Shown here one piece after another: positions 1,776 to 5,490 of a DNA stretch of 21,846 bases. Source of the DNA: a virus (taxonomy: Duplodnaviria; Heunggongvirae; Uroviricota; Caudoviricetes); IMG/VR virus record IMGVR_UViG_2778261514_000003; one strand, written 5' to 3'. The notes under the pieces were generated by a model. That model did not search any database. It saw only the letters and a list, made by a program, of their open reading frames with translations, and was not told where the DNA came from. Numbering within the stretch: the stretch's first letter is position 1; every line of letters starts with the position of its first letter. A program made the translations under genes and the position numbers.

Positions 1776-1907
1776 ATGTCAGACAAACTCATAACGCTGG
1801 CGAAGATCCTCTGTGTAATTGTCGGCATTTCATTTTCACTAATGCTGGTTGCTCTTTTTCTTTCCATGGCCTGGATGATGTTGTCTTCGTCGGGGCTGCT
1901 GGGGTGA
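1776..1907 (+). CDS. Small hydrophobic membrane protein, 43 aa ([43 protein letters not shown]); possible lysis-associated membrane protein
   Basis: ATG at 1776 preceded by a strong AAGGGAGGA ribosome-binding site. Its stop TGA (1905-1907) overlaps the GTG start of Rz at 1904 (GTGA), suggesting translational coupling. One or two predicted transmembrane helices. Confidence 0.4.
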
Positions 1908-2377
1908 ACATAAACCGAATGCTTTCCGCGTTTATCGTTATTCTGCTGGTGGCCTGTGGAGCGCTGTGGATGGCAACAGACCATTACCGTGATAACGCGA
2001 TTACCTACAAAGCGCAGCGCGATAACAAAGCCAGTGAACTGAAGCTGGCGAACGCAACCATTACTGATATGCAGGTGCGCCAGCGCGATGTTGCTGCGCT
2101 CGATGCAAAATACTCGAGGGAATTAGCCGATGCGAGAGCTGAAAATGAAACTCTTCGCGCTGACGTTGCCGCTGGTCGTAAGCGCCTGCGGATCAACGCC
2201 ACCTGTCCAGGCTCCGTGCGTGAAGCCCCCACCACCTCCGGCGTGGATAATGCAACCGGCCCCCGACTGGCAGACACCGTTACACGGGATTATTTCACCC
2301 TCAGAGAGCGGCTGATGACGATGCAGAAGCAACTGGAAGGGGCGCAGGAATATATCCGTACTCAGTGCATTAAGTAG
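1904..2377 (+). CDS. Rz: Rz i-spanin (inner-membrane spanin subunit)
   Basis: Translated ORF aligns along its length with lambda Rz as I recall it (shared ...[14 protein letters not shown]...[23 protein letters not shown]...VAAGR.RL...[17 protein letters not shown]). N-terminal transmembrane helix. Start may be GTG 1904 or ATG 1919. Confidence 0.9.
2130..2315 (+). CDS. Rz1: Rz1 o-spanin (outer-membrane lipoprotein), embedded in the +1 frame of Rz
   Basis: Fully embedded in Rz in a different frame. Lipoprotein signal with lipobox (LPLVVSAC), Pro-rich mature region ([22 protein letters not shown]) matching lambda Rz1 as recalled. Confidence 0.85.
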
Positions 2378-2625: not shown

Positions 2626-2885
2626 GCGACCTTATTATCCATGGCGCGGTATTGTCGCCGTATTCCCGTATTAACAGAGACCGCAGCCCGACAGGGAGAC
2701 TCCTCTGCGCGAGTGTGCGGGGATAATCAAAAACGATACACACCGGGGTTTACCGCGTTAACGGAGCGCGGCGTTGTCCCCTCATGGTAGCTGGTCCGGT
2801 GCGATGGTGGAAGAAACTGGATTTTGTTGCAACTGACAATCATTATCATTTTGCCGGGTCCTTTCCGGCGATCCGGGCCGTTACG

Positions 2886-2897
2886 GGGCGGCGACCT
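2886..2897. other. cosN cohesive-end site (12-nt GGGCGGCGACCT), with lambda-like flanking sequence including the cosQ region upstream
   Basis: Exact GGGCGGCGACCT followed by TCGCGGATTTTCACTATTTATGAAAATTTTCCGG, near-identical to the lambda genome left end as I recall it. Upstream GGGTCCTTTCCGGCGATCCGGGCCGTTACG resembles the lambda right end. Confidence 0.85.
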
Positions 2898-2934
2898 CGC
2901 GGATTTTCACTATTTATGAAAATTTTCCGGGATC

Positions 2935-3033
2935 CATGTCCGGTTTCTCTGCAAGTTAACCATATGAAAAATATAAAAACATGCTTTCCATGAACCGGAC
3001 ATGCGCAAAAAATAGACACTAAAACCGGACATG
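2935..3033. repeat. cosB-like region with three copies of an 11-bp motif AACCGGACATG (one inverted, two direct); candidate terminase small-subunit binding sites
   Basis: Exact copies at 2935-2945 (reverse orientation, CATGTCCGGTT), 2993-3003 and 3023-3033, lying between cosN and the Nu1 start, with an A/T-rich segment between the first and second. The arrangement mirrors lambda R3-I1-R2-R1 but the repeat sequence differs from lambda R sites. Confidence 0.6.
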
Positions 3034-3080
3034 ACCGGTTTTGTTGTGATTGTGAGGTGAGAGTTTTTGCGAGGTGAGGA

Positions 3081-3590
3081 GTGGCTACGCAGACTGAAGT
3101 TGCCAGGCATTTAAGTCTGACCGATCGCCAGCTTCGCAGATTGCAGAAATTGCCGGGTGCCCCGATATCGAATAAGCGAGGGCAACTGGATCTGGATGCC
3201 TGGCGCGATTTTTACATATCGTATCTGAGAAGAAGTAAAAACGATGTGCCTGATGGCGATAGCGAAGACGACTATGAGGAGAAATTGCTTATTGCCAGAT
3301 GGGAACTGACAGCAGAACAGGCTGTTACACAGCAGTTAAAAAATGAGGTGTCAAAAGGAAAACTTATTGACACCGGGTTCTGTATTTTTGCCCTCAGCAA
3401 GCTGGCAATGGCGTTATCCAGTACGCTTGATTCCATCCCTTTATCCATGCAGCGACAGTTTCCTGATTTAACACCGCGCCATCTTGACCATCTGAAAACC
3501 CTTATTGCGAAGGGGGCAAATCAGTGTGCGCGGGCGGGGGATAAATTACCGGATTTACTCGATGAATATATCAGAGCAACAACTGAATAA
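3081..3590 (+). CDS. nu1: Terminase small subunit (Nu1-like); C-terminal half lambda-like, N-terminal DNA-binding region divergent
   Basis: GTG start after GAGG ribosome-binding site. C-terminal region (...TGFCIFALSKLAMALSSTLDSIPLSMQRQFPDLTPRHLDHLKTLI...LLDEYI) matches lambda Nu1 as recalled. N-terminus (MATQTEVARHLSLTDRQLRRLQK) is a different helix-turn-helix-like segment. 3' end overlaps the A start. Confidence 0.85.
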   Translation: MATQTEVARHLSLTDRQLRRLQKLPGAPISNKRGQLDLDAWRDFYISYLRRSKNDVPDGDSEDDYEEKLLIARWELTAEQAVTQQLKNEVSKGKLIDTGFCIFALSKLAMALSSTLDSIPLSMQRQFPDLTPRHLDHLKTLIAKGANQCARAGDKLPDLLDEYIRATTE

Positions 3591-5490
3591 TATGATGAGT
3601 GCTGTCACAACAGCATTACAGCCCCTGATAAGGGCATTGCCGGTGACGCCAGTTGAATGGGCTGATCAAAATTATTATCTGCCTAAAGAATCTTCATATG
3701 GTGAGGGAGAATGGAAAACGCTGCCGTTCCAGATCGCCATCATGAACAGCATGGGGAATGATCAGATCCGGACTGTTAATCTGATTAAATCTGCCCGTGT
3801 TGGCTATACAAAGATGTTGCTGGGAGTCGCCGGGTATTTTATTGAGCATAAATCCCGAAACAGTCTGCTTTTTCAGCCCACGGATTCTGCCGCTGAAGAT
3901 TTTATGAAGTCTCACGTGGAGGCGACGATTCGCGATGTTCCCTGCCTGAAAAAACTTTCTCCCTGGCTGGGACGTAAACATCGTGATAATACCATCACGC
4001 TGAAACGCTTTTCATCGGGTGTGGGCTTCTGGTGCCTGGGCGGCGCTGCCGCCAAAAACTACCGTGAAAAATCCGTGGACGTGGTCTGCTATGACGAACT
4101 TTCCTCGTTCGAGCCGGATGTCGAAAAAGAGGGCTCGCCAACCCTGCTGGGGGATAAGCGTATTGAGGGCTCGGTATGGCCAAAATCCATTCGCGGCTCG
4201 ACGCCTAAAATAAAAGGCTCCTGCCAGATCGAAAAAGCGGCCAACGAGTCGGCGCATTTCATGCGTTTTTATGTGCCCTGCCCGCACTGTGGGGAGGCGC
4301 AGTATCTGAAATTTGGCGATGAGTCCACGCCTTTTGGCCTTAAATGGGAGAAGGACAGCCCCGAAAGCGTTTTCTACCTCTGTGAACATCATGGCTGCGT
4401 GATCCATCAGTCTGAGCTTGACCAGAGCAACGGGCGGTGGATCTGTGAAAACACGGGGATGTGGACCCGCGACGGTCTGACGTTTTTCAGCGCCGCGGAT
4501 AATGAAATTCCGCCGCCGCGCTCCATCACATTCCATATCTGGACGGCGTACAGTCCCTTCACCACCTGGGTACAGATTGTCTATGACTGGCTGGATGCAC
4601 TGAAAGATCCCAACGGCCTGAAAACCTTTGTGAACACCACGCTGGGCGAGACCTGGGAAGAGGCCGTGGGCGAAAAACTCGATCACCAGGTGCTGATGGA
4701 TAAGGTTGTGCGTTACACGGCTGCGGTGCCTTCCCGGGTGGTTTATCTGACGGCGGGCATTGACTCGCAGCGAAACCGTTTTGAGATGTATGTCTGGGGA
4801 TGGGCTCCGGGAGAGGAAGCCTTTCTGGTGGATAAAATCATCATTATGGGGCGTCCCGATGAGGAAGAGACGCTGTTACGTGTGGATGTGGCGATCAACA
4901 AAAAATACCGCCATGCAGACGGAACCGAAATGACCATTTCCCGTGTCTGCTGGGACACCGGGGGGATCGATGGCGAAATTGTCTATCAGAGGTCAAAAAA
5001 ACACGGTGTTTTCCGGGTGCTGCCGGTAAAAGGTGCATCTGTTTATGGCAAGCCGGTGATCACCATGCCAAAAACCCGCAATCAGCGGGGCGTGTATCTG
5101 TGCGAAGTGGGGACGGACACCGCAAAAGAAATTCTCTATGCCCGTATGAAAGCCGATCCCACGCCTGCGGATGAAGCCACGTCGTATGCCATCCGTTTTC
5201 CTGATGATCCGGAGATTTTTTCGCAGACAGAGGCGCAGCAACTGGTGGCGGAAGAGCTTGTGGAGAAGTGGGAAAAAGGAAAGATGCGTCTGCTGTGGGA
5301 TAACAAAAAGCGGCGTAACGAAGCGCTGGACTGCCTGGTGTATGCCTACGCGGCATTACGTGTGTCCGTGCAACGCTGGCAACTTGATCTGGCTGTACTG
5401 GCAAAATCCCGGGAAGAAGAGACGACCCGGCCAACCCTTAAAGAACTGGCAGCGAAGCTGTCCGGAGGAGTGAATGGTTACAGTCGCTGA
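3562..5490 (+). CDS. A: Terminase large subunit (gpA-like: ATPase / cos endonuclease)
   Basis: Strong colinear similarity to lambda gpA from MNISEQQ...VEWADQNYYLPKESSYGEGEWKTLPFQ onward. Start chosen at ATG 3562 rather than the upstream in-frame extension in the ORF track. Confidence 0.95.
   Translation: MNISEQQLNNMMSAVTTALQPLIRALPVTPVEWADQNYYLPKESSYGEGEWKTLPFQIAIMNSMGNDQIRTVNLIKSARVGYTKMLLGVAGYFIEHKSRNSLLFQPTDSAAEDFMKSHVEATIRDVPCLKKLSPWLGRKHRDNTITLKRFSSGVGFWCLGGAAAKNYREKSVDVVCYDELSSFEPDVEKEGSPTLLGDKRIEGSVWPKSIRGSTPKIKGSCQIEKAANESAHFMRFYVPCPHCGEAQYLKFGDESTPFGLKWEKDSPESVFYLCEHHGCVIHQSELDQSNGRWICENTGMWTRDGLTFFSAADNEIPPPRSITFHIWTAYSPFTTWVQIVYDWLDALKDPNGLKTFVNTTLGETWEEAVGEKLDHQVLMDKVVRYTAAVPSRVVYLTAGIDSQRNRFEMYVWGWAPGEEAFLVDKIIIMGRPDEEETLLRVDVAINKKYRHADGTEMTISRVCWDTGGIDGEIVYQRSKKHGVFRVLPVKGASVYGKPVITMPKTRNQRGVYLCEVGTDTAKEILYARMKADPTPADEATSYAIRFPDDPEIFSQTEAQQLVAEELVEKWEKGKMRLLWDNKKRRNEALDCLVYAYAALRVSVQRWQLDLAVLAKSREEETTRPTLKELAAKLSGGVNGYSR

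What the first reader, a model, noticed from the sequence alone, without database searches (positions are those of the whole stretch)
2856..3130. Lambda-identical cosN combined with non-lambda cosB repeats and a chimeric Nu1 (modular swap of packaging specificity)
cosN and its immediate flanks are essentially lambda sequence, but the presumptive cosB carries three copies of AACCGGACATG (one inverted at 2935-2945, two direct at 2993-3003 and 3023-3033) instead of lambda R sites. The Nu1 homologue has a lambda-like C-terminal (gpA-interacting) half but a different N-terminal helix-turn-helix-like segment. This is consistent with co-variation of the small-subunit DNA-binding domain and its cosB sites, giving a packaging specificity distinct from lambda (and, as far as I can recall, from phage 21).
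Basis: partly seen in the sequence, partly recalled or inferred. Interest (0 to 1): 0.5.

Follow-up and report, generated by a model that had tools for sequence, protein, structure and literature searches.

The report
Uncharacterised lambda-type packaging-specificity cassette (cosB plus TerS DNA-binding domain)
This E. coli prophage has a lambda-style DNA-packaging start site whose cutting site matches lambda, but whose recognition repeats and matching small-terminase DNA-binding domain form a different, exchangeable cassette that is common in E. coli and that I could not find described.

Summary
cosN (2886-2897) matches lambda 12/12. Lambda-like DNA runs only from about 2836 to 2930.

Downstream lie four copies of CATGTCCGGTT, not three:
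- 2935-2945
- 2993-3003 (inverted)
- 3023-3033 (inverted)
- 3030-3040 (one mismatch)

They sit where lambda and phage 21 have R3, R2 and R1.

The Nu1 homologue (3081-3590) is 46% identical to lambda Nu1 from residue 73. Its N-terminus shows no BLAST similarity, but it is predicted to have the same MerR-like winged-helix fold as the lambda TerS DNA-binding domain.

- Every "MATQ"-type TerS locus I read that retains the lambda-like cos landmark carries TCCGGTT at the R3 position, from six enteric genera to Pseudomonas, Aeromonas and Azospirillum; four distant loci lacked the motif.
- Sister prophages with about 80-87% identical terS 3' half and terL DNA carry N15-type or lambda/21-type domains, and matching different repeats.
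- A change predicted in three further loci was found.

The cassette occurs in 1186 of 5426 complete E. coli genomes, about as many as the phage 21 type. The literature I could search does not describe it.

It is a new member of a known kind. TerS binding and packaging exclusivity are inferred, not shown.

The parts
2836..2930 (+). Block homologous to the lambda cos junction (cosQ, cosN and the spacer up to bp 45). Similarity to lambda starts and stops here.
   Evidence: Global alignment to the lambda right end plus left end: cosN 12/12 and 68/78 columns in 2856-2930. Megablast hits to lambda-type Stx1 phages cover only 2780-2930.
2856..2862 (+). cosQ-like GGGTCCT, 30 bp upstream of the left cohesive end.
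   Evidence: Read directly. GGGTCC occurs at the same distance in most related loci.
2886..2897 (+). cosN cohesive-end sequence GGGCGGCGACCT. By analogy with lambda, the nicks are predicted before 2886 on the top strand and after 2897 on the bottom strand.
   Evidence: Identical to lambda bp 1-12. The nick positions are inferred.
2935..2945 (+). Site S1, CATGTCCGGTT, at bp 50-60 from the cos end. It is the equivalent of R3.
   Evidence: Same position as lambda R3 (53-65) and phage 21 R3 (50-65). The core sits at bp 55-56 in six enteric genera. Invariant among five E. coli variants.
2957..2969 (-). Candidate IHF site (I1-like), TAACCATATGAAA, at bp 72-84.
   Evidence: Two mismatches to YAANNNNTTGATW, the same number as lambda I1 by my own reading of the sequence. 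Relatives L033 and L039 have a perfect match at bp 72-73. The scan at up to one mismatch found nothing in cosB, so this is tentative.
2993..3003 (-). Site S2, AACCGGACATG, inverted, at bp 108-118. It is the equivalent of R2.
   Evidence: Same position and orientation as lambda R2 (108-120) and phage 21 R2 (107-122). Conserved at bp 108-109 in all six enteric genera with a mapped cos end.
3023..3033 (-). Site S3, AACCGGACATG, inverted. It overlaps S4.
   Evidence: A copy lies at bp 138 in Enterobacter locus L038 as well.
3030..3040 (+). Site S4, CATGACCGGTT (one mismatch), in the orientation of S1. It is the best R1 equivalent, at bp 145-155. With S3 it forms a palindrome that also scores as a terminator-like hairpin (3020-3043).
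   Evidence: Lambda R1 is at 155-166 and phage 21 R1 at 150-166.
3050..3078 (+). Two copies of TTG(T/C)GAGGTGAG, an extended Shine-Dalgarno-like sequence, ahead of the GTG start.
   Evidence: repeat family D3. GAGGTGA precedes the start codon in the Salmonella, Citrobacter and Enterobacter relatives.
3081..3242 (+). TerS (Nu1 homologue) DNA-binding domain, aa 1-54, of the MATQxEVAxHL type. Predicted winged helix-turn-helix with the recognition helix at aa 15-22 (DRQLRRLQ).
3081..3590 (+). terS (Nu1 homologue), 169 aa.
   Evidence: Pfam Phage_Nu1 E = 1e-18 over aa 49-150. 46% identical to lambda Nu1 over aa 73-164. 99.4% identical in the PhiR12 phage records.
2931..3290 (+). The exchangeable specificity cassette: cosB plus the part of terS that encodes the DNA-binding domain and linker.
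   Evidence: DNA homology to sister loci with other domain types starts only at 3294 (L029) or 3270 (L031). Lambda homology ends at 2930. L039 against L029 shows the same two breakpoints.
3562..5490 (+). terL (gpA homologue), overlapping the end of terS.
   Evidence: 66% identical to lambda gpA over 639 aa. GpA_ATPase and GpA_nuclease are recorded for the orthologues.

Best explanation
This is the packaging-initiation region (cos) of a lambda-like prophage, with the standard lambda layout: cosQ, cosN, then cosB (R3, I1, R2, R1), then terS and terL.

The large terminase subunit (66% identical to lambda gpA) would nick a lambda-identical cosN. It would be positioned by the small subunit bound to cosB.

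Here cosB consists of four TCCGGTT-core sites (CATGTCCGGTT). The TerS N-terminal winged-helix domain is a different, very diverged class, the 'MATQ' type. Its recognition helix is DRQLRRLQ.

cosB and the domain-coding 5' part of terS (about 2931-3290) form one cassette. Recombination exchanges it between lambda-like head-gene modules. The breakpoints lie between cosN and R3, and in the acidic linker after the domain.

The consequence would be a packaging specificity different from those of lambda, 21 and N15.

**Shown by sequence and comparison:** the sites, their geometry, their conservation, their co-occurrence with the domain type, and the cassette boundaries.

**Inferred:** that TerS binds these sites, that IHF bends the DNA between S1 and S2, that the virion ends are the 12-nt lambda ends, and that the specificity excludes the other types.
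For: **Sites and geometry**
- The sites are real and non-random.
- S1 is at bp 50-60, S2 (inverted) at 108-118 and S4 at 145-155. Lambda has R3 at 53-65, R2 at 108-120 and R1 at 155-166. Phage 21 has them at 50-65, 107-122 and 150-166.

**Conservation**
- In E. coli, Klebsiella, Salmonella, Citrobacter and Enterobacter loci with this domain, the core sits at bp 55-56 and inverted at 108-109. The spacers have diverged.
- Among five E. coli variants, 1 of 40 site columns varies against 21 of 79 other cosB columns (Fisher p = 0.0009).
- Most distant relatives keep TTCCG(C/G)TTCCGGTT at the R3 position, just upstream of terS.

**Exchange**
- Sister TerS proteins with closely similar C-terminal halves carry N15-type or lambda/21-type domains. 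P0056, for example, differs from the window protein at only about four residues over the last ~75 in the alignment.
- Their cosB regions carry GGTTGTTGTTT or lambda-like repeats in the same geometry.
- The breakpoints are clean.

**A prediction that was tested**
- Among the enteric loci, those with Arg at helix residue 20 (RQLRRL) and Leu/Met at residue 36 have ATGTCCGGTT. Those with Asp/Asn20 and Tyr36 have (T/C)TTCCGGTT.
- Three further loci were fetched after I formed this rule (P0022, P0023, P0014). All have CATTTCCGGTT, as predicted.

**Fold**
- MerR-like winged helix, as in the terminase small-subunit fragment of the RppC complex.

**Function is plausible**
- The reading frames are intact.
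- Five phage genome records (PhiR12_1 and four relatives) are 99.5% identical here and list MG1655 or E. coli C as host.
- The cassette is present in 1186 of 5426 complete E. coli genomes.
Against: - There is no binding, footprint, packaging or end-mapping data for any member of this class.
- The IHF match in the window is weak: two mismatches, and nothing at up to one mismatch.
- The site shares CATGTC with phage 21 R sequences, so some cross-recognition cannot be excluded.
- The residue-20 and residue-36 co-variation may reflect one ancestral event, and the two residues cannot be separated.
- Four distant MATQ-type loci (L016, L018, L027, L028) have no CCGGTT upstream of terS, L025 and L026 have only a far-upstream copy, and L019 and L020 have TTCCGCTTCCCC instead.
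- Sequence similarity between this domain and the lambda domain is marginal (hhalign P = 0.003; no PDB profile hit).
- Some genomic copies are defective. In O157 strain 644-PT8 the adjacent terL is annotated as frameshifted.
Confidence: 0.8

Rival explanations
1. The cassette does not give a separate specificity. This TerS and phage 21 TerS recognise each other's sites, because both site families contain CATGTC followed by (C)GG. Functionally it would then belong to the phage 21 group.
For: The phage 21 R2 and R1 sites read TTTCATGTCGG(A/G)CC, and the window sites read CATGTCCGGTT, at nearly the same positions. N15 terminase is known to package lambda DNA although their R3 sequences differ (PMC4669245), so cross-recognition between classes has a precedent.
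Against: Within the MATQ family the conserved part is TCCGGTT. The CATG part varies (CATT, CACT, GATG, CGCT). Phage 21 sites lack CCGGTT. The recognition helices are unrelated: DRQLRRLQ here against RTIERWQS in phage 21. tblastn finds no N-terminal similarity to phage 21 gp1.
Confidence: 0.1
2. The repeats are not TerS sites. They serve another function, for example an RNA hairpin or terminator (the 3020-3043 palindrome) that controls terS expression, or binding sites for a different regulator.
For: The S3/S4 palindrome scores as a terminator-like hairpin on both strands, and a weaker hairpin overlaps S1. It lies 40 nt upstream of the terS start.
Against: S1 and S2 are 58 bp apart and conserved in position relative to cosN in six genera. 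The S3/S4 palindrome is absent or degenerate in most of them. The motif changes whenever the TerS domain type changes. Most distant relatives keep the site without any hairpin.
Confidence: 0.05
3. This copy is a decaying prophage remnant. The cos region is a fossil with no present function.
For: Many E. coli lambdoid prophages are defective. One O157 copy has a frameshifted terL, and many database TerS entries of this type are truncated.
Against: In the window terS, terL and the downstream head and tail reading frames are intact. Five phage genome records with named laboratory hosts carry the region at 99.5% identity. Variation within the species avoids the sites.
Confidence: 0.05

Closest known systems
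Bacteriophage lambda cos (cosQ-cosN-cosB with R3-I1-R2-R1) and terminase gpNu1/gpA
   Same: Identical 12-nt cosN. Conserved cosQ and the spacer to bp 45. The same distances for the R3, R2 and R1 equivalents. terS overlaps terL. gpA is 66% identical and the Nu1 C-terminal half 46% identical. The TerS domain has the same winged-helix fold.
   Different: The R sequence is CATGTCCGGTT, not CGTTTCC(G/T)TTCTT. The recognition helix is DRQLRRLQ, not RTIQNWQE. BLAST finds no similarity in the first 70 residues. There is an extra inverted copy (S3) overlapping the R1 equivalent.
Phage 21 cosB and gp1, the classical alternative specificity (annotated in OL657228)
   Same: Same architecture and almost the same coordinates (R3 50-65, I1 74-86, R2 107-122, R1 150-166). 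The sites share the hexamer CATGTC. Prevalence in E. coli is similar: 1194 genomes against 1186.
   Different: The conserved core TCCGGTT is absent from phage 21 sites. The TerS domain is of another sequence class. The C-terminal half is 40% identical.
N15 and Monarch-group cosB and TerS (PMC4669245)
   Same: The Monarch-like E. coli prophages are sister lineages that exchange exactly this cassette with the MATQ type. Distant MATQ-type phages (Aeromonas phiARM81ld, Pseudomonas and Azospirillum prophages) have a simple cosB of R3 only, close to the terS start, like N15.
   Different: The R3 sequence there is GGTTGTTGTTTAAT against TCCGGTT here. The domain there is MAxLLNKSDMA, which hhalign still links to the lambda type (E = 3.5e-6). 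The MATQ type is barely linked (P = 0.003).
Rpp proteins and cos of Gram-negative PICIs (PMC6739421, PMC9026076)
   Different: Rpp lacks the TerL-binding C-terminus and acts by pairing with a helper phage's TerS. The protein here is a complete TerS, encoded directly upstream of terL in a full head and tail module. Identity to RppC is 16%.

Membership tests
Lambda-like cos packaging system (cosQ-cosN-cosB plus Nu1/gpA terminase) | cosN with the 12-nt cohesive-end sequence and flanking symmetric CG | tested here: met
   GGGCGGCGACCT at 2886-2897, 12/12 identical to lambda, flanked by ACG and CGCG.
Lambda-like cos packaging system (cosQ-cosN-cosB plus Nu1/gpA terminase) | cosQ upstream of cosN | tested here: met
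   GGGTCCT at 2856-2862. The same distance in lambda and in the relatives.
Lambda-like cos packaging system (cosQ-cosN-cosB plus Nu1/gpA terminase) | TerL of the gpA family directly downstream, overlapping terS | tested here: met
   3562-5490 is 66% identical to lambda gpA.
Lambda-like cos packaging system (cosQ-cosN-cosB plus Nu1/gpA terminase) | TerS with the Nu1-family oligomerisation and TerL-binding C-terminal part | tested here: met
   Pfam PF07471, E = 1e-18, 67.9 bits against a cut-off of 30. PHROG 57 and PHROG 1790.
Lambda-like cos packaging system (cosQ-cosN-cosB plus Nu1/gpA terminase) | [quoted passage not shown] | tested here: met
   [not shown]
Lambda-like cos packaging system (cosQ-cosN-cosB plus Nu1/gpA terminase) | cosB with an R site at about bp 50-65, an inverted R site at about bp 108-120 and a third at about bp 150-165 | tested here: met
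   S1 at 50-60, S2 at 108-118 (inverted), S4 at 145-155, plus an extra S3 at 138-148.
Lambda-like cos packaging system (cosQ-cosN-cosB plus Nu1/gpA terminase) | IHF site (I1) between R3 and R2 | tested here: inconclusive
   The window has a 2-mismatch match at bp 72-84, and none at up to one mismatch. Relatives L033 and L039 have perfect matches at bp 72-73.
Lambda-like cos packaging system (cosQ-cosN-cosB plus Nu1/gpA terminase) | TerS binds the R sites, and virion DNA has 12-nt 5' cohesive ends | not testable with these tools
   Needs footprinting or EMSA, and end sequencing of virion DNA.
Lambda packaging-specificity group (lambda, phi80, 434) | R sequences CGTTTCC(G/T)TTCTT and the gpNu1-type recognition helix | tested here: not met
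   No lambda R sequence in 2931-3080. No N-terminal similarity to lambda Nu1.
Phage 21 packaging-specificity group | R sequences TTTCATGTCGGnCC and the gp1-type domain | tested here: not met
   Only the hexamer CATGTC is shared. tblastn aligns only aa 64-166 to phage 21 gp1.
N15/Monarch packaging-specificity group | R3 GGTTGTTGTTTAAT and the MAxLLNKSDMA domain | tested here: not met
   The motif is absent from the window. It is present in sister locus L029, whose TerS has that domain.
PICI Rpp redirecting proteins | Short protein (135-153 aa) lacking the TerL-binding C-terminus, encoded on an island without terL | tested here: not met
   The window protein has the full Nu1 C-terminal part and is followed by terL and the head genes.

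The most novel reading that the evidence does not exclude
The TCCGGTT site and the MATQ domain form an undescribed, mutually exclusive packaging-specificity group of lambda-like phages. It is old: the pair is found from enterics to Pseudomonas, Aeromonas and Azospirillum, mostly as a simple R3-only cosB that enteric phages elaborated into R3-I1-R2-R1. It is as common in E. coli as the phage 21 group, and O157:H7 genomes carry two copies. It would divide the lambdoid prophage pool into groups that can or cannot package each other's DNA. It would also decide which helper phages cos-type islands can exploit. The co-variation of Arg20 (and/or residue 36) with guanine 53 would offer a simple, testable recognition rule.
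Probability: 0.55. Interest if true: 0.5.

Novelty: new member of a known kind. Interest (0 to 1): 0.4.

Why it matters
Packaging specificity decides which DNA a terminase will encapsidate. It therefore decides which co-resident prophages, cosmids and hijacking islands one phage's machinery can mobilise.

The genetics of lambda-like packaging rests on a few specificities: lambda, 21, N15/Monarch, Gifsy-1 and the PICI Rpp system. I could not find this class characterised in the literature available to me. It is present in about a fifth of complete E. coli genomes, including O157:H7 and O104:H4.

The comparative data provide:
- a defined cassette of about 360 bp,
- a conserved 7-bp core,
- a candidate protein-base contact, and
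- natural swap partners with the same terminase body.

These are the reagents a specificity-swap experiment needs.

The mechanism is the expected lambda one, so the result extends a known picture rather than changing it.

Tried and rejected
**Searches that gave little or nothing**
- A profile search of PDB sequences with the TerS alignment gave no meaningful hit. Sequence alone could not place the N-terminal domain.
- hhalign of the N-terminal alignments gave only marginal support for homology with the lambda/21 domain (P = 0.003).
- NCBIfam has no model that matches this protein.
- The IHF consensus scan at up to one mismatch found nothing inside cosB.
- Literature searches for the PhiR12 records and for temperate phages from the ECOR strain collection did not find their source paper.
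- Papers found by searching for phiARM81ld looked, from their titles and abstracts, to concern quorum sensing rather than DNA ends. I did not read them.
- One literature search failed on a term that was too short.

**A workaround**
- The species-representative genome scan returned no enteric loci, only distant Proteobacteria. I fetched the enteric loci through exact-protein look-ups instead.

**Ideas considered and rejected**
- That the protein is a recent lambda hybrid. The C-terminal half is only 46% identical to lambda.
- That the repeats are only a terminator hairpin. Their position is conserved relative to cosN in loci that lack the palindrome.
Full report
**What is in the sequence**

The window carries lambdoid lysis genes (lysozyme, Rz/Rz1), then a non-coding stretch, then homologues of lambda Nu1, A, W, B, C and the remaining head and tail genes.

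The 12-nt lambda cohesive-end sequence GGGCGGCGACCT lies at 2886-2897, and GGGTCCT (cosQ) lies 30 bp upstream. An alignment to the lambda right-end/left-end junction shows similarity only from about 2836 to 2930. cosN matches 12/12, the first 45 bp of the left end match 43/45, and 68 of 78 columns match in 2856-2930. Similarity ends abruptly at bp 45 of the left end.

**The repeats**

The repeat finder confirms CATGTCCGGTT at 2935-2945 and its exact complement at 2993-3003 and 3023-3033. It adds a fourth copy with one mismatch, CATGACCGGTT, at 3030-3040. This copy overlaps the third and forms the palindrome AAAACCGGACATGACCGGTTTT.

With up to one mismatch, 4 of the 5 matches in the whole window lie within these 106 bp. 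The expectation for the window is 0.62. Four CCGGTT cores within 110 bp occurred in 1 of 500 shuffles.

Counted from the first base of the cohesive end, the sites lie as follows:

| Element | This window | Lambda | Phage 21 |
|---|---|---|---|
| R3 equivalent (S1) | 50-60 | 53-65 | 50-65 |
| R2 equivalent (S2, inverted) | 108-118 | 108-120 | 107-122 |
| Extra copy (S3, inverted) | 138-148 | none | none |
| R1 equivalent (S4) | 145-155 | 155-166 | 150-166 |

In both phages the middle site is inverted.

An IHF-like sequence lies at bp 72-84. It has two mismatches to the consensus, which by my reading is as many as lambda I1 has. The stricter scan found nothing there.

**The proteins**

terS (3081-3590) matches Pfam Phage_Nu1 only over aa 49-150. 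It aligns to lambda Nu1 only over aa 73-164, at 46% identity, and to phage 21 gp1 at 40%. terL (3562-5490) is 66% identical to lambda gpA.

The first 58 residues were modelled from an alignment of 15 sequences (pLDDT 83). They fold as strand, helix 4-10, helix 15-22, wing, strand, helix 38-54.

PHROG 57 also contains lambda Nu1, phage 21 gp1 and N15 gp1, and it matches this protein end to end. At the sequence level the link is marginal: hhalign gives P = 0.003, and the PDB profile search found nothing. The N-terminus is therefore a very diverged homologue of the same winged-helix domain, not an unrelated insertion.

**Co-variation of domain and sites**

Database homologues fall into three N-terminal classes joined to similar C-terminal halves:
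- MATQxEVAxHL (this one)
- MAxLLNKSDMA (N15 type)
- MxVNKK (lambda/21 type)

P0056 has an N15-type domain. It differs from the window protein at only about four residues over the last ~75 residues (my reading of the alignment) and is unrelated over the first 60.

I fetched the DNA for nine enteric MATQ-type loci from E. coli, Klebsiella, Salmonella, Citrobacter, Enterobacter and unnamed sequencing runs. Every one has (A/C)(T/G)TCCGGTT upstream of terS and an inverted copy 53 bp downstream. In the six where I located the cos end, the core sits at bp 55-56 and the inverted copy at bp 108-109. Some have a third copy, and two have a perfect IHF consensus at bp 72-73. The intervening sequence has diverged.

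I read 22 more distant loci and two phage genomes: Pseudomonas, Aeromonas phiARM81ld, Azospirillum, Microbulbifer and others.
- Most of those that keep the lambda-like cosQ/ATGAAAA landmark have TTCCG(C/G)TTCCGGTT at about bp 55-64, immediately before terS, with no R2 or R1. This is an N15-like simple cosB.
- L019 and L020 have the degenerate TTCCGCTTCCCC.
- L024 has TTCCGCTTCCAC.
- L013 has a copy far upstream.
- L016, L018, L027 and L028 show no CCGGTT upstream of terS.
- L025 and L026 have only a far-upstream CCGGTT.

By contrast, the E. coli N15-type sister locus L029 has GGTTGTTGTTT, its inverted copy 57 bp on, and a third copy. The Salmonella lambda/21-type sister locus L031 has AGATCCGTTCTTCTT-like repeats.

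**Cassette boundaries**

- L029 and L031 share DNA with the window only from 3294 and 3270 onward. That is the linker after the domain, at about residue 64-72.
- L039 (MATQ type) and L029 (N15 type) share a variant cosQ-cosN block at 91% identity and terS-3'/terL at 87%. Nothing matches across the roughly 370 bp between.
- The unit of exchange is therefore cosB plus the domain-coding part of terS, about 2931-3290 in the window.
- The same comparison shows that the cohesive-end sequence assorts independently of cosB. L039 and L029 share GGGG(A/T)CGGCAGA, whereas the window has the lambda sequence.

**A small prediction that held**

Among the first enteric loci, those with RQLRRL in helix 2 (Arg20; Leu/Met36 in the wing) had ATGTCCGGTT. 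Those with Asp20 and Tyr36 had (T/C)TTCCGGTT.

I then fetched three further loci with Asn/Asp20 and Tyr36 (P0022, P0023, P0014). All have CATTTCCGGTT. This fits direct read-out of base 53. The sequences are related, though, and residues 20 and 36 cannot be separated, so it remains a lead.

**Selection on the sites within E. coli**

I aligned the window with a PhiR12 phage, an O157 strain and two other strains. In cosB, 1 of 40 site columns varies against 21 of 79 other columns (Fisher p = 0.0009). There are only five sequences and they are not independent.

**Prevalence and function**

| cosB-plus-domain type | Complete E. coli genomes (of 5426) |
|---|---|
| This type | 1186 (1916 places; two in O157:H7 genomes; also O104:H4) |
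| Phage 21 type | 1194 |
| Lambda type (including nohA/nohD remnants) | 4013 |
| N15/Monarch type | 244 |

These counts come from megablast, which needs high identity, so they are lower bounds and not strictly comparable across types.

Five phage genome records (PhiR12_1 and four relatives, hosts MG1655 or E. coli C) are 99.5% identical across the region. This suggests the module works in virion-forming phages.

**Comparison with what is known**

The papers I could read list these specificities:
- lambda (shared with phi80)
- 21
- N15/Monarch
- Gifsy-1
- the PICI Rpp/cos-PICI system

They state that R3 at bp 50-65, and its spacing from cosN, are critical. None mentions a TCCGGTT site or this domain. 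The library lacks most subscription-journal papers, including the 2015 Virology paper on N15 cosB, so prior description cannot be excluded. Annotation calls the protein only 'terminase small subunit' or 'Nu1'. One PHROG made of its N-terminal fragments is labelled 'unknown function'.

**Verdict**

Mechanistically this is an ordinary lambda-type cos. What is new is a further recognition class with defined cassette borders and wide distribution.

Three things remain inferred: TerS binding to the sites, the role of IHF, and exclusivity towards lambda, 21 and N15. The shared CATGTC with phage 21 sites leaves a small chance of cross-recognition.

Noticed in passing
L039:1284-1358 and L029:1242-1316 (compare window 2856-2930): A second cohesive-end variant, about GGGG(A/T)CGGCAGA followed by CGCGCAAAAAC, is shared at 91% identity by an E. 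coli prophage with the MATQ-type cosB and one with the N15-type cosB. The cosN sequence and the cosB type therefore assort independently.
   Followed up: partly
window 3020-3043: The overlapping S3/S4 sites form an 8-9 bp stem with a 6-nt loop followed by a T-rich run. It scores as an intrinsic-terminator-like hairpin on both strands, 40 nt upstream of terS. I did not examine whether it affects late transcription or terS translation.
   Followed up: partly
window 3050-3078: There are two tandem copies of TTG(T/C)GAGGTGAG, an extended Shine-Dalgarno-like sequence, before the GTG start of terS. In the loci I read, relatives in other genera show one GAGGTGA.
   Followed up: no
L005:1-170, L006:1-80, L007 and L023 upstream of position 2501: Distant MATQ-type phages and prophages often have the site as a tandem direct repeat with a 6-bp period (TTCCGGTTCCGGTT), right before terS, with no inverted copies. 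This arrangement differs from the inverted sites 53 bp apart in enterics.
   Followed up: partly
L044:1032-1130 (E. coli O157 strain 644-PT8): In this O157 genome the terL next to a 95.8% identical copy of the cassette is annotated as frameshifted. In several O157:H7 genomes the terS itself is annotated only as a hypothetical protein. Some copies are probably defective.
   Followed up: no
E. coli genome collection: Lambda-type cosB plus the nu1 5' end is found in 4013 of 5426 complete E. coli genomes, often annotated as nohA or nohD. Potential lambda-type packaging sites are therefore nearly ubiquitous in the species.
   Followed up: no
window 1904-2377 and 2130-2315: An Rz-like spanin gene has a lipoprotein-like reading frame ([22 protein letters not shown]...) embedded in the +1 frame. 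This is the usual Rz/Rz1 arrangement.
   Followed up: no
[not shown]
   Followed up: no
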